Assembly: GCA_964523615.1 (NCBI GenBank)
Contig: CAZFZU010000001.1
Coordinates: forward strand, 27,063-91,062
DNA length: 64,000 nucleotides
Origin: an uncultured Eubacteriales bacterium
GTDB taxonomy: Bacteria > Acidobacteriota > Aminicenantia > Aminicenantales > Saccharicenantaceae
Direction: 5' to 3'
The notes beneath the pieces are model-generated. The model ran no database searches and was not told where the DNA came from. It was given only the letters and a program-made list of their open reading frames with translations. Both the position numbers and the translations under genes were made by a program. This document shows positions 1,314-11,936 of the stretch, in pieces; position 1 is the stretch's first letter, and the number at the start of each line of letters is the position of its first letter.

Positions 1314-2759
1314 CTAAGGCATTCCGGAACGGAAAATATTCGCCTCGACCCGGGTACAGGGAAACATCTCTTTGATGAAAAACATCCCGTCCAGGATCCG
1401 GGACCAATCCGTGGTCCTGGGTTTATATTTGAGAAATCGGCAGGACAGCGGCGACCGGAGCCAAGCGCCGTCGGCCGCGGGATTGCGGAAATCCAAAACG
1501 GCATAGTCGAAGCCGGCGGAGGAAAAGAGACCTTCCAAGCTGTTCGGCGCGGCCGGGGCCACTTCGAACGACGTGGGCATTCCGACCTCCGCCCACCGGC
1601 CTTGGAAGGAAGCGAAGCCCAACGAATACACCTCGCCGCCCATCGCCTTGTCCAGCCAGTCGCCCATGGGGACGAAGGGTTCGTCCGGAATCCCGATGAG
1701 ATCGTAGTGCCGGCTGATGTGCGACACCGCAGACCAAACGACGATCTTCCGCTCCGGATAGGCCCGTCGGGCCAGCCAGATGAGGTTGTCCCCCATTTGC
1801 CGGTCCCGTAGATTGAAGGCCCAGTCCATGATGGCTTTATCCCTCGATGCCACATTGATCCGCCAGCTCAACTTCAAGTACGAAGCGATGCTCTTCAAAC
1901 ATTGGATCCAGAAGTCCCGTTCGGCCGTCTCCGGCTCGCGGCCCGGGGGCGACGATGCGAGCGCCAGGCTGAGGTCCCGGACGGCGATCTCGAAGGCGGC
2001 TTGATCTTCGGGCCCGACATTCTTAAAATCGCTGCCGTTCCGGATGAAAGCCGGATCATTCACCACAAGCGCCAGGGTGTCCATCACCCGGGATACGGAG
2101 CTCTTGGCCGAGGGAGACAATCCGGCACCGGCCAAAAAATCGCTCAAATCCTTCTCGAGATGATCCTGGGAGGCGCTTCCCGTGAATTGCATGTCAAACC
2201 CGGCCAATTCCAGCGGAAGATCCGTTTTCGACGACTCCGCCAGGTAGCTCCACAGCGGGTTCGACTGGAGGCTGGCGCTCCAGGTCTCGGGAATGGCCGT
2301 AGATACGGCGGCCTGGGGATCCGCGCCGGCCCGCAGAGCCGACCAAGCCTTGCGGGTGTCGTAGAACCCGCTTTCGAACGCAAGGACGTCGAAGCCCATC
2401 CTTTGATGGAGAAACTTGATCAACCGGACCTTGGCCGCGAAGGTCGCCCCGTCGCCGTGGCTGCTCTCGCCCAGCATGACGATGCGCCGGCCGCCGATCA
2501 TCTGTCGAAGGGGCTCAAGATCGGAAAAATCGGCATCCTCGGACCTGATGGAACGAACCGGAAGAGCATGTTTTTTCAAATAATCGATCCGGGCTTCTCT
2601 CGTCGTCTCCTCCGCCGAAGCCGGCGCCGGCCCGAACCCGGCCCCGTTCATCGGGCCAAAGATCAGCAGCGCCAAGGAAACGGAAACCCCGCTGATTCGG
2701 GCAACGGCGAGCCGGGAATTTCGCTTCAGCTTCCGGCTCGGCGTTCTAACGGCGACCAT
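1314..2759 (-). CDS. Erythromycin esterase family (EreA/ChaN-like) protein, secreted
   Basis: 481-aa ORF with an N-terminal hydrophobic signal. The block RRIVMLGESSHGDGATF...VLAFESGFYD is typical of the erythromycin-esterase-like family. GC is visibly lower than the flanks (about 50% in the 60-nt lines I counted). Confidence 0.7.
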   Translation of the reverse strand: MVAVRTPSRKLKRNSRLAVARISGVSVSLALLIFGPMNGAGFGPAPASAEETTREARIDYLKKHALPVRSIRSEDADFSDLEPLRQMIGGRRIVMLGESSHGDGATFAAKVRLIKFLHQRMGFDVLAFESGFYDTRKAWSALRAGADPQAAVSTAIPETWSASLQSNPLWSYLAESSKTDLPLELAGFDMQFTGSASQDHLEKDLSDFLAGAGLSPSAKSSVSRVMDTLALVVNDPAFIRNGSDFKNVGPEDQAAFEIAVRDLSLALASSPPGREPETAERDFWIQCLKSIASYLKLSWRINVASRDKAIMDWAFNLRDRQMGDNLIWLARRAYPERKIVVWSAVSHISRHYDLIGIPDEPFVPMGDWLDKAMGGEVYSLGFASFQGRWAEVGMPTSFEVAPAAPNSLEGLFSSAGFDYAVLDFRNPAADGAWLRSPLSCRFLKYKPRTTDWSRILDGMFFIKEMFPCTRVEANIFRSGMP

Positions 2760-3786
2760 GAGGGCTCCTTGGTCCGAATGTTCCCTCGTAAACGCTGTTG
2801 TATTCCCGGAAGTCCTGATCGCAGCCGCCGATCACATAGATCCTGTCCCCCAGGACCGCGACTCCCGAGAACTGGATGGGTTTCGGCAGAGGACTGGCCA
2901 TCGCCCAGCGATCCCTGCGGACATCAAAAAAGCACACCTTGTCGCTGGCCATGGAAGATCCGAGCTCTTCCGTGAGCCCGCCGACGACGAAGATGTCCTC
3001 CCCGATGACCGCGATCCCGGGCCCGAGGATGGGAAATGGCAGGTCGGGCAAGGATTCCCAGGCCTTTGCCCCGGGATCATATCTTTGGAACGCCGCGGAG
3101 ATGGACCGGCCCTTATTCGGACCCAGGCCGCCGCCGATCGCGTACAGCTTCCCCCCGACGACGGCCACCTGGACTCCATCGCGGGCTTCCGGCAAGGGAC
3201 GTCCCATGGCCCAGCGATCCGCGGCGAGGTCGTAGATCTCTACGGTCGGGGTGAGGGCCACTCGTTCGGAACCATCCGGCGCGTCAGGGTCTTTACCCAT
3301 CCCCGATACGACGTAGATCTGATTCCCGATGAGACCGCCATCGATATGCTGACGCGGCAGGGACAACGGCGCCAAGCCTGCCCACCTGTCTTCGTCCGGC
3401 AGATAAAGATCGTTGTTGGGCAGGACCGGATCGCCCCCGACGGCGAAGATCTTGCGGTCCAGGGAGACCAGGGCGAAATTCGACCGGCCGACCGGGATCC
3501 TCGCTTTGGCCGTCCAGCTGTCTTTTTCCGGATCGTATTCGTAGTTCGAGGATTCGCACCACTCCTTCGTCGCCGGGCAGTATCCGCCCATGAAATAGAT
3601 CTTTCCGCCTGACGAGACGGCCTTTCCGTTGCGATGGGGCAGGGGCAGATCCGCCTTCGCGGTCCATCGGATGGCGCGGACGCCGCCCCTCTCGGGCTCG
3701 CTTTGGGCGCCCGTCGTGCTGAAAGCGCTCACGAAGATGGACCCGAGAACGAAGGGAAGAACGAATGTCCGGGCCTTAAGCGACAT
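2746..3786 (-). CDS. Kelch-repeat beta-propeller protein, secreted
   Basis: Repeated units GGKIYFMGG, KIFAVGG, NQIYVVSG, GGKLYAIGG, EDIFVVGG and DRIYVIGG each carry W/DxW spacing. The signal peptide is MSLKARTFVLPFVLGSIFVSAFS. I place the start at the second ATG (3786). The gene overlaps the esterase start by 14 nt. Confidence 0.75.
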   Translation of the reverse strand: MSLKARTFVLPFVLGSIFVSAFSTTGAQSEPERGGVRAIRWTAKADLPLPHRNGKAVSSGGKIYFMGGYCPATKEWCESSNYEYDPEKDSWTAKARIPVGRSNFALVSLDRKIFAVGGDPVLPNNDLYLPDEDRWAGLAPLSLPRQHIDGGLIGNQIYVVSGMGKDPDAPDGSERVALTPTVEIYDLAADRWAMGRPLPEARDGVQVAVVGGKLYAIGGGLGPNKGRSISAAFQRYDPGAKAWESLPDLPFPILGPGIAVIGEDIFVVGGLTEELGSSMASDKVCFFDVRRDRWAMASPLPKPIQFSGVAVLGDRIYVIGGCDQDFREYNSVYEGTFGPRSPHGRR

Positions 3787-3910
3787 CCTATCTCCTCGGA
3801 AGCCGGGATCCATATATGATTACGCCCGGATGGCCCCGCACGTTGGGAGTAATTAATAGAATTTCCCTGGCTGGCGGCGGAACGGGGAGGTTCCCCTATA
3901 GGGCGGATCG

Positions 3911-6819: not shown

Positions 6820-7776
6820 ATGAATACGCGCCAGGAAGACGATTTCGGCACCCCCTTCGAGCGCGTCTTCGTCGGCGCTACCGCCGTCGCGACCGCGCTC
6901 GTCCTGGGCTACCTCGCCGTCCAAGGCCCGCTCGCCCGCGGCGTCATCGCCTACAAGACCGCGCCGGGCATCGTCGGCCAGCTCATGGGCCAGGACGCGG
7001 TCAACCTGGTCCTGATGGCGCCCCTGTTGCTCGCCGGAGGCGTTCTCCTCTTGCTCCGCCGGCCCCTCGCGAAGTTTCTGCTCATCGCTACGCCGCTTTT
7101 CCTCATCTACTACGCCCTGAGCTACACCATCGGCTGGGAGTGGAGCTCGCCGGCCTACGCGGGCAACAGCGAGCGCTGGTTCTTCCTCTACCTCTTCGTC
7201 CTCGTCGCGGCCCTCGTCATCCTGCTCTACGCCCTGGCGGTCTTCCCCAAGGACGTCGAGAGCCGGTTCCGTAAGAGCGGGCTGGCGGCCTATTCCGCCG
7301 TGTTCGTCCTGTTCCTGCTCGTCTTCGCGGCCATGTGGGCCAAGGAGGTCTTCGAGGTCGTCCGGACCGGCACCAGCCGCGGTTACGACATCGCCCCGGC
7401 CGCCTTCTGGCTGGTCCGGGTCTTCGACCTCGGCTTCTCGATCCCCCTGGGCCTCATCAGCGTCTACCTCCTGTGGGCCCGGCCGAAGCAGGCCTACGCC
7501 GTCGTCTGCCTGTTCTACGGCTTCTTCTTCACCCAGATCGTGGCCGTCAACGCCATGGGCTGGACCATGCTCGTCAAGAAAGACCCGACCTTCCTCTGGC
7601 GCGACCTCGTCGTCTTCCATGTCCTGGCCGCGGTCATCGCCTTCGGCTTCTTCTACGTTCGGAGGAATTACCGCCAACCGGTCCTGACGCCCGAGGAGGA
7701 AGCAAACCCCGCCAAGATCCTCGCCGAGGACGAGTTCGTTGCCCTGGAGCAGGCGAAAAAGTCGCTCGATCGCTAA
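6820..7776 (+). CDS. Integral membrane protein of unknown function (~8 predicted TM segments)
   Basis: 318 aa with an AGGAGG RBS 6-11 nt upstream of the ATG. It has repeated long hydrophobic stretches. I recognise no family. Confidence 0.7.
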   Translation: MNTRQEDDFGTPFERVFVGATAVATALVLGYLAVQGPLARGVIAYKTAPGIVGQLMGQDAVNLVLMAPLLLAGGVLLLLRRPLAKFLLIATPLFLIYYALSYTIGWEWSSPAYAGNSERWFFLYLFVLVAALVILLYALAVFPKDVESRFRKSGLAAYSAVFVLFLLVFAAMWAKEVFEVVRTGTSRGYDIAPAAFWLVRVFDLGFSIPLGLISVYLLWARPKQAYAVVCLFYGFFFTQIVAVNAMGWTMLVKKDPTFLWRDLVVFHVLAAVIAFGFFYVRRNYRQPVLTPEEEANPAKILAEDEFVALEQAKKSLDR

Positions 7777-7794
7777 TCGCCTTATCTCCGGACT

Positions 7795-9768
7795 TCAGAT
7801 GATTTTGAAGCCGATGTCCTTCAGGTAATCGAACGTCGGGTCATAGAACGAGGGCAAGCGCGTCGGGTCCTCCTTGTCCCCCGGCGGCACGACGATGACC
7901 ATTCCCTGGCGGGCCCGGGTCAACAGGACCCGGTAAGCGTTCTTCTGGTATTTCTGTCGTTCCGGGTCCTTGATGTTCGTCCACTTATCGCCAAGGAAAG
8001 ATTTGTGCGCCCATCCGGAATGGGAATAACGGAAATCGGCGTCCCAAGTGATACAAGTCCAATCTAGCTCCAGTCCCTGGACGTCGAATTCCGTCGCCAC
8101 ATCTTCAAGATAGTAGGATGAGCGGACATCGTTCTTTCCATCCAGGAACCAATGGACAGGATCCGTGGGGGATTTGACAAAAATGGCATGGGGCTTGAGT
8201 CGTTCGGCCTGAGACGAAACGACGATTCCATATCGTTCTGTTCCTCTAGCCTGCCGCCGTAGCCACGTCTTAGCCTTGTCGATTTCCCGAGTGATCACTA
8301 TGGGGTATTTCCCCGTCAATTGTCCATGGGTCCAGCGCGCCGCCTCGGTTTCGCGATCGAGCAACTGCTTAACTAAGAGGGAGACGTTCTCGGCGCGGAA
8401 CGAGCGCATAGACACGGAGAGGTGAAGCGACTTCTCTTCGTTCACATGTCCCAACGGTTTCAGGCGCTCCAAGGCTCTTCCGGCATCATACTCGTTGTCC
8501 ATCAATTGCGGCGAGATGTAAACGCGCCAATCCCTGAAACGTCGTAACAGCGAATCGATCCATTCCGAGATCCCGGCCTCCCCCGTATTGATCTCCTGGC
8601 CTCCCCCTACAAGACAGATGACGACGGCCCAATCGGGGTGACGGTCGAGACATGAAATGAGGAATTCCGGTTCTGAAAACGTGAACCCAGGCGTCTTTTT
8701 CTTCCGTTTCATGAAGTCCGCGGTCTTTTGGGGAGTCCATGCGCGCTGCGCCTCATCGAAGAGGGCCACGTGATCGATCGGCGGTTTCGCGTCGATCAGG
8801 CAATCGTCCCGGAAGTGATGGACGTTCTGGATGAATGCCTTGACGCGGCTTTTCGCGTCATGTTTCTTGATCTTCTTGCCCCGGGCCTTTTCTCTCGCGA
8901 CCATATCCCTGGCCAGGGCTTCTTGCAGGATCTTCACGAGCGGGCCGTTTCCGGAAAGAAAGACGCTATGATGAGCATCGGCCGTATCGATATATTTCGT
9001 GGCGATGTTGAGTCCGACGAGGGTTTTGCCGGCCCCCGGGACGCCGGTCACGAAGCAGATCGATTTATGCCCCTGGGATTTCGACCGCTGGATGATGTCC
9101 GAGACCGCGTCAGACGTCTCCCGTAAGTTGATCGCGCCCGCGTCGCTACGGGAGATCTCAGCTACGGAATGACTTCGATAGAGCGCTAGAGCGGCTTCCA
9201 TTATAGTCGGTGTCGGGCTGTATCGTCCGGTCCTCCATATCTGCCAATCGATAGGTTCCCCTTCCGCGAAATGCAAGACATCCACGAGGGTTTGCCCGAA
9301 CAGCTCCGCGTTAGTTCTAATGGGATACAGCAGCTTGTCGTTCTGAGGCGTCATGGAGATAACGGGCATGACGGTTTTGGCGCCGGTCGCGATCAGAATG
9401 GGCGCGATGACCCGGTCATGGCTCGTTTCGTGGAAGTTCTTGAGGTCCAAGGCATAATCGGTCACTTGGTCGACGGCATATGCGGAAAAATCCTGGGAAC
9501 CCGTCTTGAATTCGAGGACGAAGATGACCGGTCCAATGATGAGGAGGACATCAATCCTCTCTCCCATGCGGGGGATCGCATATTCGAAATAGATGGCCCC
9601 TGAATAAGGGCCCAGCACCGAACGGAGGATCTGGATCTCCTCGACCCAGGCCGCACGTTGCTCGGAGGTGTCCGGGAAGTCGCTGCCGAGCGCTAGCTTT
9701 CCGACGATCTCTTCCGTTGACGTTCGGAGGAATCCGGAGATCGTGTCAGAATAATATTCGCGGTTCAC
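7795..9768 (-). CDS. DUF2075-type (Schlafen-like) SF1 helicase/ATPase with an N-terminal PD-(D/E)xK-like nuclease region
   Basis: 657 aa with Walker [11 protein letters not shown]. The C-terminal [19 protein letters not shown] block is typical of DUF2075 and UvrD-C-like proteins. The N-terminal ...[18 protein letters not shown]... looks like a D...ExK nuclease core. GC was about 53-58% in sampled lines, against ~68% in the flanks. The GTG start overlaps the upstream stop (GTGA). Confidence 0.75.
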
Positions 9769-10355
9769 TTCATCCGGTCCCGCATCTTGGCCTCGTTCTC
9801 GGAGGGCCAGTAGCCGCAGTCGAGCTCCAGGAAGACGGAGGTGTAAGGCACGGCCAGGGTCGTCTTGACCATGACGATCTTGAAGGCCTTTCCGGCTTGA
9901 TCGAGCCGGGCGATGAGCTCTTCATGGAGGACGGGCGCGGCGCCCCGGCCCTTGAGCGCCTCGTCGAGCCGCCGCTTGGCCTCGTCCGCTCCCGGCGCCA
10001 GGTCCTCGGTCACGTATCCCAGCTCCTTGTCGAGCCAGATCTTGGGCCGGATGTGCTTGGCGCCGTCGACGGCCTCGAGCACCTTCTCCAGGACGGCGAA
10101 ATGGTCCTCGCCCGTGACGATGGTCTCGATGCCGGGCGAGATCTGGAGGGGGAAGGCCGAGTCGGCTACCACGATCCAGTTGCGGTGGCCTAGGGCCGGC
10201 AGATAGGCGGCGAGCTTGTCCATCCAGGCCGGGGACGCGACGGCTTGAGCGTTGGTCATGGCGTGTTCCTCCCCTTTCGCTTCGTCCTCCTGATCACAGG
10301 CGACGAACGCCGCGAGCAGGACGGCCAATCCGACGCTCAGGAGCTTAACGCGCAC
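9765..10355 (-). CDS. RbsD/FucU (sugar mutarotase/pyranase) family protein with an N-terminal signal or lipoprotein-like peptide
   Basis: [16 protein letters not shown] and [21 protein letters not shown] resemble the LGHxDxxvvxDAxxP and C-terminal blocks of RbsD/FucU. The N-terminus is [20 protein letters not shown]. Confidence 0.55.
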
Positions 10356-10808: not shown

Positions 10809-10877
10809 GGGCAGGCTCCTTTCGCCGGGATGCGGGCGGACGCCCGCCGCTAGTATCCAACGGGGCGCCGGCCGGCG

Positions 10878-11936
10878 TCAATAAGGCAGGGCGACGAAGA
10901 ACTCGACCCACTTCCCGGGCTCGCCCTCGACCCAGATGCGGCCCTTGTGCTTGTCGACGACGGTCTTCGAGATGTAGAGCCCCAGGCCCGAGCCCTTGAC
11001 GCCCTCGGTGCCCTTTTGTTTGAGCCGCTCGAAGCGCTTGAAGAGCCGGGGCATGTCTTCCTTGGGGATGCCGACGCCCTCGTTGCGGACCGCCAGCACG
11101 AGCTCGCCGTCCCGCGCCGCCAGCCGTATCCGGACCGGCGTGCCCTCGGCGCCGTACTTGACGGCGTTGTTGACGAGGTTCGCGACCAGGATCTTGAGCA
11201 GGTTGGGATCGCCCTCGATGACGGGGTCGCCGTCGAGCTCGGTCACGATGGCCATCCGGCGGACGTTGTCGCAGACGCCGGGCATGTCCAGGACCGGCCC
11301 GACGACGGCCGAGGCGAAGGGGACCTTCTCCTTGAACAGGGCCAGCCCATCGAGCTCCATCTTGGACAGGTCGATGTAGCTGCGGATGATGTCCTCGAGA
11401 TAGGAGCAGTTGCGGATGATGGTCTCGACGATCCTCTGCTGCTCGGGCTCGAGCTTGCCGAAATAGCCCCGCTGCAGGGTCGTCGCCGTCGTCTGGACGG
11501 CGGCCAGGGGGCTCTTGAGCTCGTGGGAGACGATGGCCATGAGATCGAGCATCTTGGCCCCGGCGGCGTCCTTGCGGGCCTCGATGGCGTTGGCGATGAC
11601 GCTCCGCAGCTCGTCCGGGGTGAAGGGCTTGGGGACGTAGTCGAAGGCCCCGTTCTTGAGGGCTTCGCGGGCCGTGTCGACGCTCGAGAATCCGGTGAAG
11701 ATGATGACGGTCGTCTTGGGCCGGTCCCGGCGCAGGGCCTTGAGGACCTCCATGCCGCCGAGGCCGGGCATCTTGAGGTCGGTGACGACGATGTCGTAGT
11801 CCTTGGCCATGGCCATGGCCAGACCCTCGTCGCCGGAGGGGGCCGTGTCGATCTCGTGGTCGGAGCCGGCGAAGATGCGCTTCGAGCTCTTGAGGACGAT
11901 GTCCTCGTCGTCGATGAACAGCAGCTTGACGCCCAT
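10878..11936 (-). CDS. Hybrid response-regulator receiver / histidine kinase (REC-HisKA-HATPase)
   Basis: REC motifs DDED...DLKMPG...KPF are present, with H-box VSHELKSPL, N-box LVNNAVKY and G-box GSGLGLYIS. Confidence 0.9.
   Translation of the reverse strand: MGVKLLFIDDEDIVLKSSKRIFAGSDHEIDTAPSGDEGLAMAMAKDYDIVVTDLKMPGLGGMEVLKALRRDRPKTTVIIFTGFSSVDTAREALKNGAFDYVPKPFTPDELRSVIANAIEARKDAAGAKMLDLMAIVSHELKSPLAAVQTTATTLQRGYFGKLEPEQQRIVETIIRNCSYLEDIIRSYIDLSKMELDGLALFKEKVPFASAVVGPVLDMPGVCDNVRRMAIVTELDGDPVIEGDPNLLKILVANLVNNAVKYGAEGTPVRIRLAARDGELVLAVRNEGVGIPKEDMPRLFKRFERLKQKGTEGVKGSGLGLYISKTVVDKHKGRIWVEGEPGKWVEFFVALPY

What the first reader, a model, noticed from the sequence alone, without database searches (positions are those of the whole stretch)
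7795..9768. Lower-GC DUF2075 nuclease-helicase gene wedged between native genes: candidate stand-alone defence or genome-surveillance gene
The 657-aa protein combines an N-terminal PD-(D/E)xK-like segment (RIDVLLI...VLEFK) with a P-loop SF1 helicase module of the DUF2075 / Schlafen-like type (GVPGAGKT ... [19 protein letters not shown]). Its GC (about 53-58% in sampled lines) is well below the ~68% of both neighbours. Only 18 nt separate its stop from the convergent membrane-protein gene. Its GTG start overlaps the stop of the upstream FucU-like gene (GTGA). This is a very tight single-gene acquisition with no mobility genes. Nuclease-helicase fusions of this family are often discussed as anti-phage or anti-plasmid effectors, but few are characterised. 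No partner (methylase, sensor or toxin) is present here.
Basis: partly seen in the sequence, partly recalled or inferred. Interest (0 to 1): 0.6.

Follow-up and report, generated by a model that had tools for sequence, protein, structure and literature searches.

The report
Nhi-like anti-phage nuclease-helicase gene
This lower-GC gene encodes one protein that joins a DNA-cutting domain to a helicase motor; it belongs to the "Nhi-like" family, which has a laboratory-verified anti-phage member, and it sits in a genome slot where related bacteria repeatedly keep or lose it, so it is a solid but fairly ordinary defence gene.

Summary
A 657-aa GTG-started ORF lies at 7795-9768 (-). Its GC is 0.56 and its GC3 0.70, against GC3 0.89-0.98 in the neighbours. 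Its start overlaps the FucU-like stop (GTGA), and 18 nt separate it from the convergent membrane gene.

The protein has an N-terminal PD-(D/E)xK nuclease domain. E62, D73, E86-x-K88 and Q101xxxY105 are invariant, and the fold matches McrC, Can2 and Cas4-type nucleases. A DUF2075 SF1 helicase domain follows.

It matches PADLOC candidate PDC-S41 end to end (E=4e-282). The verified Nhi-like protein of Millman et al. 2022 also hits PDC-S41 (E=9e-76) and aligns with this protein (E=3e-39). So this is a divergent member of a family with experimental anti-phage support, and it is not Nhi proper.

In this Aminicenantes genus the gene always occupies the same slot, and that slot is variable. It is intact in 6 of 24 relatives, empty in five species, and reduced to remnants elsewhere. 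In several species a ParE/RHH toxin-antitoxin pair sits beside it, and a relic of that antitoxin is fused to the window's membrane gene. dN/dS is 0.07-0.14.

This scan has already found the same family on other DNA several times. Novelty: new member of a known kind.

The parts
7795..9768 (-). Nhi-like / PDC-S41 nuclease-helicase gene, 657 aa, GTG start
   Evidence: ORF. PADLOC PDC-S41 E=4.4e-282 over residues 1-655. Single copy in the genome. dN/dS 0.07-0.14 against orthologues.
9073..9768 (-). N-terminal domain (residues 1-232): PD-(D/E)xK nuclease fold plus linker helices
   Evidence: AF2 model with pLDDT 82.8. Foldseek PDB matches are all PD-(D/E)xK nucleases: McrC 6hz4 E=3.5e-4, Cdn1, Can2, Card1, ACE1/Cas4, R.BspD6I, DdmD, Dna2 and AddAB. 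No Pfam model matches this region.
9454..9585 (-). Nuclease catalytic motif block: E62, D73, E86-x-K88, Q101-xxx-Y105
   Evidence: Invariant in alignments A1 and A2 across many phyla. Conserved in the verified B. cereus Nhi-like protein and in the Exiguobacterium plasmid homologue.
7885..9066 (-). DUF2075 / Schlafen-group-3-type SF1 helicase domain (residues 235-628)
   Evidence: Pfam PF09848 E=3.7e-81. The full model matches the SLFN11/SLFN14 helicase domains, Upf1, RecD and nsp13.
9022..9045 (-). Walker A motif GVPGAGKT (residues 242-249)
   Evidence: Invariant in A1.
8746..8757 (-). Walker B motif DEAQ (residues 338-341)
   Evidence: Invariant in A1.
9765..9768 (-). GTGA overlap of the FucU-like stop and the nuclease-helicase start
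   Evidence: Read from the sequence. The same adjacency to the FucU-like gene is seen in G004, G008, G010, G013 and G024. All eight copies compared (seven from the genus, one from G038) start with GTG.
7777..7794 (.). 18-nt spacer between the two convergent stop codons
   Evidence: Read from the sequence. In relatives this interval holds 16-25 nt (empty site), an RHH ORF, or a ParE+RHH pair.
7684..7767 (+). Relic of an RHH-antitoxin 3' end, fused in frame as the C-terminal tail (residues 289-316) of the membrane protein
   Evidence: 61% identity over 28 aa to the C-terminus of the RHH ORF of G021, E=8e-8. DNA-level matches to the RHH genes of G015 and G044. In most genus members the membrane protein ends near residue 286.
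9765..10355 (-). FucU/RbsD-like lipoprotein gene: a resident flank, not a partner
   Evidence: Weak Pfam RbsD_FucU match, E=5e-5. Present in genus members whose slot is empty. No PADLOC hit.
6820..7776 (+). Membrane-protein gene: a resident flank
   Evidence: Found next to empty sites in relatives. No Pfam or PADLOC hit.

Best explanation
The gene encodes a stand-alone anti-phage (or anti-mobile-DNA) nuclease-helicase of the Nhi-like family, which is the same family as PADLOC candidate PDC-S41.

Shown here:
- An N-terminal PD-(D/E)xK nuclease with an intact catalytic set, fused to a DUF2075 SF1 helicase with intact Walker A and B motifs.
- Membership of the HMM family that also contains the experimentally verified Nhi-like protein.
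- Accessory, horizontally circulating distribution.
- Strong purifying selection on both domains.

Inferred from tested relatives: one polypeptide acts as both sensor and effector. The helicase domain uses ATP to engage phage DNA. The trigger may be replication intermediates, as for Nhi. It may instead be phage-modified (methylated) DNA, as the methylase-loss escape mutants of Nhi-like suggest. The nuclease domain is probably held inactive in the resting protein. Once engaged, it nicks and degrades the foreign DNA while sparing the chromosome.

In this Aminicenantes genus the gene sits in one fixed slot downstream of the OsmC and FucU-like genes. It probably arrived there from a lower-GC donor, possibly together with a parDE-type toxin-antitoxin pair. 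Since then it has been kept, exchanged between species or deleted, lineage by lineage.
For: Family membership:
- PDC-S41 full-length match, E=4.4e-282.
- The verified Nhi-like protein (SG141, B. cereus FSL H8-0482; first 399 of 611 aa, taken from the Millman supplement) hits PDC-S41 at E=8.8e-76. It hits the Nhi model only at the P-loop.
- That protein aligns with the window protein over residues 35-399 at E=3e-39, covering both the nuclease and the helicase motifs.

Domains:
- Nuclease fold and invariant E/D/ExK/QxxxY set.
- SF1B helicase fold and PF09848 match.

Accessory distribution and transfer:
- Intact in 6 of 24 other genus genomes, with a remnant in a seventh.
- Found in 15 of 201 sampled genomes of the phylum and in 0 of 14 control genomes.
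- Empty sites and deletion remnants at the same slot.
- Lower GC than the flanks in 17 of 20 copies across phyla.
- 66-78% identity to copies in many phyla.
- The genus copies are rejected as a single clade, p-AU 1e-65.

Functional constraint: dN/dS 0.07-0.14.

Defence-type neighbourhoods elsewhere:
- McrBC next to the Exiguobacterium plasmid homologue.
- Toxin-antitoxin genes near copies in other phyla.

Literature on relatives:
- Millman preprint: the Nhi-like protein is defensive.
- Stokar-Avihail preprint: phages escape Nhi-like by losing a DNA methylase.
- 2025 nuclease-NTPase preprint: PsNhi-like defends against 7 of 11 phages. In vitro it degrades phage DNA but not host or plasmid DNA.
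- Bari et al.: the Nhi nuclease is autoinhibited in the full-length protein, and the helicase is active.
Against: - No experiment exists on this protein or on any member of its ~658-aa clade.
- It is only 27-28% identical to the verified Bacillus-type member.
- I could compare only the first 399 residues of that member.
- I could not confirm by sequence that PsNhi-like belongs to the same HMM family.
- In this window the gene is not in a defence island. Its neighbours are metabolic and signalling genes.
- The very high conservation of the clade (66-78% across phyla, dN/dS about 0.1) is unusual for defence genes, which often diversify fast.
- The trigger (methylated DNA, replication intermediates, or SSB) is pure inference for this protein.
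Confidence: 0.75

Rival explanations
1. The protein mainly restricts plasmids or other non-phage mobile DNA, or serves competition between mobile elements, rather than defending against lytic phages. The biochemistry would be the same but the target different.
For: Homologues occur on plasmids: 51 PLSDB records, including Persicobacter plasmids at 47% identity and Bacillus-group megaplasmids. One homologue is on an unverified phage-labelled contig. Structurally related nuclease-helicases such as DdmD act against plasmids.
Against: The tested family members were scored as anti-phage. PsNhi-like did not cut plasmid DNA in vitro at the conditions reported.
Confidence: 0.12
2. The functional unit is a three-gene islet: the nuclease-helicase plus a ParE-type toxin and an RHH antitoxin. 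The window would then hold only a crippled remainder of that system.
For: ParE (Pfam E=6e-5) and RHH ORFs lie directly beside the gene in G021, G013 and the L071 locus, and beside its deletion remnant in G052. A relic of the antitoxin survives in the window.
Against: - The gene stays intact and under purifying selection without the pair in G000 and G024.
- Copies in other phyla lack this pair. Their neighbours are unrelated toxin-antitoxin types or none.
- The verified Nhi-like works as a single gene.
- The toxin-antitoxin ORFs have no PADLOC hit.
Confidence: 0.06
3. It is a housekeeping or stress-related DNA repair or replication helicase-nuclease, analogous to Dna2 or AddAB. It would be co-expressed with the OsmC stress gene and the FucU-like gene, to which it is translationally coupled.
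For: - Same position in several genus members, with a conserved start/stop overlap.
- Strong purifying selection and unusually high conservation.
- A promoter-like site lies upstream of OsmC.
- The nuclease fold also matches Dna2 and AddAB, though weakly.
Against: - Not found in most genus genomes, including genomes 94-96% complete, with clean empty sites.
- Deletion and frameshift remnants.
- Found in only 15 of 201 genomes of the phylum and in 0 of 14 model genomes.
- Foreign composition.
- Tree incongruent with taxonomy.
Confidence: 0.05
4. It is an inactive relic on its way to loss.
For: Many relatives show decay of this gene. Examples are G052, G019, G013 contig C4, and in the wider phylum G252, G245 and G082.
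Against: This copy is full length. All catalytic and NTPase motifs are intact. dN/dS is about 0.1. Metagenomes hold relatives at 89-92% identity that are also full length.
Confidence: 0.02

Closest known systems
Nhi-like (Millman et al. 2022, system SG141; verified protein of Bacillus cereus FSL H8-0482, 611 aa), the same family as PADLOC candidate PDC-S41
   Same: Same HMM family: both hit PDLC05014, and both hit the Nhi model only at the P-loop. Same architecture, with an N-terminal PD-(D/E)xK nuclease (E, D, ExK, QxxxY) and a DUF2075 SF1 helicase. They align across both domains at E=3e-39. Both are single-gene systems.
   Different: Only 27% identity. The window protein is about 46 aa longer, with an insertion around residues 289-310 and a conserved C-terminal tail. 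It belongs to a ~658-aa clade that is spread through uncultured anaerobe phyla and is untested. Only 399 of the 611 residues of the verified protein were available for comparison.
PsNhi-like (bioRxiv 10.1101/2025.07.10.664194)
   Same: It is described as a single polypeptide with a PD-(D/E)xK nuclease (split at about residue 163 for domain constructs) and an SF1 helicase. It gives broad anti-phage defence in E. coli and degrades phage DNA but not host or plasmid DNA in vitro. The domain boundary is similar to the one here.
Nhi (SERP2475, Staphylococcus epidermidis; Bari et al. 2022)
   Same: Identical domain order, with an N-terminal ~230-aa PD-(D/E)xK nuclease followed by DUF2075. It is single-gene. 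The nuclease and helicase are both needed for immunity, and the nuclease is autoinhibited in the full-length protein.
   Different: No family-level sequence match. The PADLOC Nhi model matches only residues 224-263 (the P-loop) at E=2.9e-5. The Nhi nuclease was likened to HsdR. Here the motif set carries the RecB/Cas4-type QxxxY, and the best fold match is McrC.
Human SLFN11/SLFN14 (Schlafen group 3) helicase domain
   Same: Best structural matches of the full model (7zel E=4e-9), and the same Pfam family, PF09848.
   Different: The Schlafen N-terminal tRNA-cleaving RNase domain is absent. The N-terminal domain here is a PD-(D/E)xK DNA-nuclease fold.
Other nuclease-helicase defence proteins (Hna, DdmD, Hachiman HamAB, Gabija GajAB)
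   Same: They share the general logic of an ATP-driven helicase coupled to a PD-(D/E)xK or related nuclease that degrades invading DNA.
   Different: They use different helicase superfamilies or a different domain order (SF2, C-terminal nuclease), or are two-protein complexes. Sequence matches are P-loop only (GajB E>0.006).

Membership tests
Nhi-like / PADLOC PDC-S41 | Full-length match to the family HMM (PDLC05014) | tested here: met
   E=4.4e-282; residues 1-655 on model positions 1-651 of 657.
Nhi-like / PADLOC PDC-S41 | Homology to the experimentally verified member across both domains | tested here: met
   The verified SG141 protein (399 aa available) hits PDC-S41 at E=8.8e-76. It aligns to window residues 35-399 at E=3e-39, 27% identity. 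Its C-terminal ~210 aa were not available.
Nhi-like / PADLOC PDC-S41 | N-terminal PD-(D/E)xK nuclease with catalytic residues intact | tested here: met
   E62, D73, E86, K88, Q101 and Y105 are invariant. The fold matches only PD-(D/E)xK nucleases.
Nhi-like / PADLOC PDC-S41 | DUF2075 (PF09848) SF1 helicase with Walker A and B motifs | tested here: met
   PF09848 E=3.7e-81. GVPGAGKT and DEAQ are invariant. SF1B fold matches.
Nhi-like / PADLOC PDC-S41 | Single-gene system without a conserved partner | tested here: met
   Unrelated neighbourhoods in four other lineages and in another Aminicenantes family. The ParE/RHH neighbour is confined to this genus and is dispensable.
Nhi-like / PADLOC PDC-S41 | Protection against phage infection | not testable with these tools
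   Needs plaque assays. Known only for relatives.
Nhi (SERP2475 family, Bari et al. 2022) | Family-level sequence match to the Nhi model | tested here: not met
   PADLOC PDLC02372 matches residues 224-263 only, E=2.9e-5.
Nhi (SERP2475 family, Bari et al. 2022) | Architecture: N-terminal ~230-aa nuclease followed by DUF2075 helicase | tested here: met
Bacterial Schlafen defence proteins | Schlafen (Ex4ExK) ribonuclease domain | tested here: not met
   No Schlafen or AlbA-type Pfam hit. The N-terminal fold is a PD-(D/E)xK nuclease. Only the group-3 helicase domain is shared.
Modification-dependent (type IV, McrBC-like) restriction | McrC-type nuclease working with a McrB GTPase, and dependence on modified DNA | tested here: inconclusive
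   McrC is the best fold match, but it is weak (E=3.5e-4, TM 0.37). There is no McrB-type partner. Dependence on methylated DNA is suggested only by escape mutants of the Bacillus Nhi-like.
Housekeeping repair helicase-nucleases (AddAB, RecBCD, Dna2) | Conserved presence across the lineage, with native composition | tested here: not met
   Intact in 6 of 24 genus genomes and found in 15 of 201 phylum genomes. Empty sites exist. GC3 is 0.70 against 0.89-0.98 in the neighbours.

The most novel reading that the evidence does not exclude
The ~658-aa clade to which this gene belongs is a functionally distinct subtype of Nhi-like. It is more than 65% identical across at least ten phyla of mostly uncultured anaerobes and has dN/dS about 0.1. 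On this reading it recognises a conserved, hard-to-evade feature of foreign DNA, such as a common modification or a replication structure. That would explain why it is frozen in sequence while being passed between phyla. In Aminicenantes it would travel as a small recombination-borne islet together with a parDE-type addiction pair, without any integrase.
Probability: 0.15. Interest if true: 0.45.

Novelty: new member of a known kind. Interest (0 to 1): 0.27.

Why it matters
**Annotation.** The result ties PADLOC's "untested candidate" PDC-S41 to the experimentally verified Nhi-like system. Thousands of "DUF2075 domain-containing" or "hypothetical" proteins in metagenomes can therefore be read as probable anti-phage nuclease-helicases; more than 8000 clusters were scored here.

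**Biology.**
- It gives uncultured Aminicenantes a first plausible single-gene defence.
- It documents a clean presence/absence/decay series at one chromosomal slot, of the kind used to study defence-gene turnover without integrases.
- The clade's unusual cross-phylum conservation would make it a good choice for mechanistic work on how Nhi-like proteins tell foreign DNA from self.

Otherwise the finding is ordinary. The family, the architecture and the likely function are already known, and this scan has met the same family several times on other DNA.

Tried and rejected
**Searches that gave little or nothing**
- A sequence search of the PDB found nothing meaningful; the best hit was E=0.54 at the P-loop.
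- NCBIfam has no model for this protein or for its two neighbours.
- A full-text search for "PDC-S41" found no paper.
- The Payne et al. preprint describes the 145 PDC candidates only collectively. Its held supplements do not name PDC-S41.
- No supplements are held for the 2025 nuclease-NTPase preprint. The PsNhi-like sequence therefore could not be compared.

**Tools and sequences I could not use**
- L074 did not translate cleanly, with 30 stops. L071 gave a garbled translation with a branch length near 10 in the first tree. Both were left out of the alignments and of the final tree.
- Hits from the representative-library search were not fed into structure prediction, because that tool does not accept them. 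The models therefore rest on shallow alignments of 24 and 17 sequences.
- I did not fetch the Nhi copy that the literature reports on the B. anthracis pXO1 plasmid. I used an Exiguobacterium plasmid homologue as the yardstick instead.

**Ideas considered and rejected**
- FucU-like protein as a partner: it is an exported lipoprotein and is present beside empty sites.
- The window as a defence island: the other low-GC islet at about 1.3-3.8 kb encodes an erythromycin-esterase-like protein and a Kelch-repeat protein, with no PADLOC hits.
- Mis-binning as the explanation for the Syntrophales copy: its flanks lack all the Aminicenantes flank genes. Mis-binning of a 4.3-kb contig still cannot be excluded altogether.
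Full report
**1. Observation**

The ORF at 7795-9768 on the minus strand is real: 657 aa with a GTG start. Its start GTG at 9768-9766 overlaps the TGA stop of the upstream FucU-like gene at 9767-9765, forming GTGA. Eighteen bases (7777-7794) separate its stop from the stop of the convergent membrane-protein gene.

The gene's GC is 0.559, with 500-nt windows at 0.538-0.574. The window as a whole is at 0.679 and the neighbouring genes at 0.655-0.718. Third codon positions show the contrast most clearly, with GC3 of 0.70 against 0.89-0.98 in six neighbours. The genome holds a single copy.

**2. What the protein is**

*Helicase part.* Pfam places residues 235-628 in PF09848, DUF2075 or "Schlafen group 3 helicase", at E=4e-81. 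It has no model for residues 1-230. A full-length AlphaFold2 model (mean pLDDT 79.7) finds the SLFN11 and SLFN14 helicase domains, Upf1, RecD and nsp13 as its best PDB matches, so this part is an SF1B-type helicase.

*Conserved motifs.* I aligned 24 homologues from many phyla at 51-78% identity to the window protein. The following are invariant:
- Walker A (GVPGAGKT, 242-249) and Walker B (DEAQ, 338-341).
- GGGQEI and the arginine-rich LLTRARQGM block.
- In the N-terminal part, E62, D73, E86-x-K88 and Q101-xxx-Y105. This is the motif set of RecB/Cas4-type PD-(D/E)xK nucleases.

*Nuclease part.* A separate model of residues 1-232 (pLDDT 82.8, with the core at 83-97) matches only PD-(D/E)xK nucleases in the PDB. 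They are McrC (E=3.5e-4), the CRISPR ancillary nucleases Cdn1, Can2 and Card1, the Cas4-family ACE1, R.BspD6I, and the nuclease domains of DdmD, Dna2 and AddAB. These matches are individually modest (TM about 0.3-0.37).

**3. Family assignment**

PADLOC-DB returns an end-to-end match to the single-gene "phage defence candidate" PDC-S41 (E=4.4e-282). The models for Nhi, AbiO and GajB match only the P-loop, at E of 1e-7 to 1e-2.

The PDC sets are 145 untested candidates derived by "guilt by embedding" within BREX, DISARM and type I RM systems (Payne et al. preprint). Earlier notes of this scan suggested that PDC-S41 equals the "Nhi-like" system of Millman et al. 2022, and I tested that claim.
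- The Millman supplement prints the first 399 of the 611 residues of the verified protein, SG141 from Bacillus cereus FSL H8-0482, marked "Verified".
- That fragment hits PDC-S41 at E=8.8e-76 over its whole length. It hits Nhi only at E=6e-7.
- It aligns with the window protein over residues 35-399 at E=3e-39 and 27% identity. The alignment includes FEY, D, ExK, QxxxY, Walker A and B, and GxGQEI.
- A 603-aa homologue on an Exiguobacterium plasmid behaves the same way (PDC-S41 E=3e-112; 28% identity over the full length). It lies directly beside McrBC.

So PDC-S41 is the Nhi-like family, it has an experimentally verified member, and the window gene is a divergent member of it. It is not a member of Nhi proper (SERP2475), with which it shares architecture only.

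**4. Distribution and history**

*A large and unusually conserved clade.* More than 8000 clusters scored, and the best 120 are 68-100% identical. Named homologues at 66-78% identity come from Aminicenantes, Syntrophales, Saccharibacteria and Bacteroidota, with Omnitrophota and Nitrospirae names among the protein hits. More distant ones, at 49-62%, come from Phycisphaerae, Elusimicrobia, Opitutaceae, Steroidobacteraceae and other Acidobacteria.

*Patchy occurrence.* The gene is intact in 6 of 24 other genomes of the genus, with a remnant in a seventh, and in 1 of 16 genomes of sister families. It occurs in 15 of 201 sampled genomes of the phylum and in 0 of 14 model genomes.

*One slot, many states.* Every intact copy in the genus sits in the same slot. 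In G004, G008, G010, G013 and G024 it lies directly downstream of the FucU-like gene, as in the window. In G021 the slot is the same but the FucU-like gene is missing. All copies compared start with GTG. The slot takes these forms:

| State of the slot | Where |
|---|---|
| Empty; 16-25 nt between the membrane and FucU-like genes | G007 (two contigs), G012, G046, G002, G022 |
| RHH-antitoxin-like ORF only | G044, G015 |
| RHH + ParE + nuclease-helicase reduced to residues 1-26 joined to 615-654 | G052 |
| 31-aa remnant of the nuclease-helicase | G019 |
| Frameshifted second copy | G013 contig C4 |
| Intact gene beside an intact ParE (Pfam E=6e-5) and RHH pair | G021, G013, the L071 locus |

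*A relic in the window itself.* The last ~30 residues of the membrane protein are 61% identical (E=8e-8) to the C-terminus of that antitoxin. DNA-level matches confirm this. The tight 18-nt junction is therefore the scar of a deletion that removed the toxin-antitoxin pair. It is not the footprint of a neat single-gene insertion.

**5. Vertical or horizontal?**

- In a careful maximum-likelihood tree, all Aminicenantes copies plus one Syntrophales copy form a 100/100-supported group nested among copies from other phyla.
- The genus alone is rejected as a clade (p-AU 1e-65). A copy from another Aminicenantes family (G038), which lies at an unrelated locus on a 636-kb contig, nests inside it, and so does the Syntrophales copy. 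One caveat: I named the group after seeing a first quick tree.
- G010 and G024 share 93.7% identity in this protein but only 77% in the adjacent FucU-like protein. This points to recent exchange between species at the same slot, most simply by homologous recombination through the conserved flanks.
- Synonymous divergence between most genus copies is saturated (dS 1.2-2.1). dN/dS is 0.07-0.14 overall and is low in both domains, at 0.11-0.18 for the nuclease and 0.06 for the helicase.
- GC3 of the genus copies ranges from 0.64 to 0.84, always below the flanks. Across phyla the gene is less GC-rich than its flanks in 17 of 20 copies.

The simplest history is one old entry from a lower-GC donor into this slot, partial amelioration, then repeated loss, occasional exchange between species, and export to other lineages.

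**6. How it most likely works**

*Shown here:* an intact nuclease and an intact SF1 ATPase/helicase in one polypeptide, under purifying selection, with no conserved partner.

*Inferred from tested relatives:*
- Nhi needs both activities for immunity. Its isolated N-terminal 230 residues nick and degrade DNA, while the full-length protein is nearly silent. It unwinds DNA with 5' or 3' tails, and it blocks accumulation of phage DNA.
- Phages escape the Bacillus Nhi-like system by losing their DNA methylase. Methylated phage DNA therefore seems to sensitise them.
- A protein called PsNhi-like protected E. coli more than 20-fold against 7 of 11 phages. In vitro it degraded T7, SECphi17 and SPO1 DNA but not E. 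coli or plasmid DNA.

I therefore propose a sensor-effector nuclease-helicase. It engages a feature of phage DNA, either a modification or a replication intermediate, through the helicase domain. It then releases the N-terminal nuclease to nick and degrade that DNA. The McrC-like fold and the McrBC neighbour of one homologue fit a modification-dependent mode, but they are weak hints only.

**7. Rivals**

- *Housekeeping repair role.* Contradicted by the empty sites, the remnants, the sparse distribution and the foreign composition.
- *Obligatory three-gene unit with ParE/RHH.* Contradicted by intact, constrained copies without the pair, by unrelated neighbourhoods elsewhere, and by the single-gene activity of the verified member.
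- *Primarily anti-plasmid.* This remains possible.
- *Dead relic.* Very unlikely, given dN/dS and the intact motifs.

**8. Novelty and score**

The family, the architecture and the probable function are known, and this scan has already reported the same family on other DNA several times.
- A direct sequence link between PDC-S41 and the verified Nhi-like protein.
- A well-resolved series of presence, absence and decay at one slot of an Aminicenantes genus, including the fused antitoxin relic.
- The observation that the ~658-aa clade is unusually conserved across phyla.

Verdict: new member of a known kind, with modest interest.

**Limits**

- There is no experiment on this protein.
- Only a partial sequence of the verified member was compared.
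- The alignments behind the structure models are shallow.
- The genomes are metagenome-assembled, so absence calls depend on completeness.

Noticed in passing
window 7684-7767 (+): The C-terminal tail of the membrane protein (residues 289-316) is a fused relic of an RHH-antitoxin gene that relatives carry at this spot. In most genus members the protein ends near residue 286.
   Followed up: yes
L065:12002-12520 (G021); also L063, L071, L007 and L028: A ParE-type toxin (Pfam E=6e-5) and an RHH-like antitoxin lie directly beside the nuclease-helicase in several genus members. Two species (G044, G015) keep the antitoxin alone, without toxin or helicase.
   Followed up: partly
L005 (G010) and L006 (G024): The nuclease-helicase is 93.7% identical between these two species, while the adjacent FucU-like protein is only 77% identical. 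This suggests a recent exchange of the gene between species at the same slot.
   Followed up: partly
window 1314-3813 (-): A second lower-GC stretch encodes an erythromycin-esterase-like protein (PF05139, E=2e-28) and a Kelch-repeat protein. Neither has a PADLOC hit, so it is not a defence islet.
   Followed up: partly
window 9765-10355 (-): The FucU/RbsD-like protein (a weak Pfam match below the gathering score) begins with a lipoprotein-type signal (…LLAAFVAC|DQ). It is therefore probably exported, which is unusual for this family.
   Followed up: no
L081:2989-7758 (Exiguobacterium aurantiacum plasmid pCXA): A 603-aa PDC-S41 homologue sits between a plasmid rep gene and a McrBC pair (McrC family protein plus AAA ATPase) on a mobilizable plasmid.
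   Followed up: partly
L082:692-2632 (MT836127.1, 'UNVERIFIED: Bacteriophage sp.', human faecal sample): A 12.7-kb unannotated contig labelled as phage carries a full-length PDC-S41 homologue (49% identity, PADLOC E=2.5e-276). I did not examine whether the contig is really viral.
   Followed up: no
G252:C24:46617-47712; G245:C3:963844-965862; G082:C323:19975-21879 (phylum sample): More decayed copies occur elsewhere in the phylum. One has an internal deletion, with residues 4-232 joined to 502-653. Two carry an in-frame TAG.
   Followed up: no
L071:10001-11974 and L074:10001-11964: Two homologous loci did not translate cleanly. L074 gave 30 stops, and L071 gave a garbled protein on a very long branch. 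They are probably frameshifted or misaligned copies.
   Followed up: no
window 10852-10881 (-): A sigma-70-like promoter match lies just upstream of the OsmC gene. It could drive an OsmC, FucU-like and nuclease-helicase transcript. This is a consensus match only.
   Followed up: no
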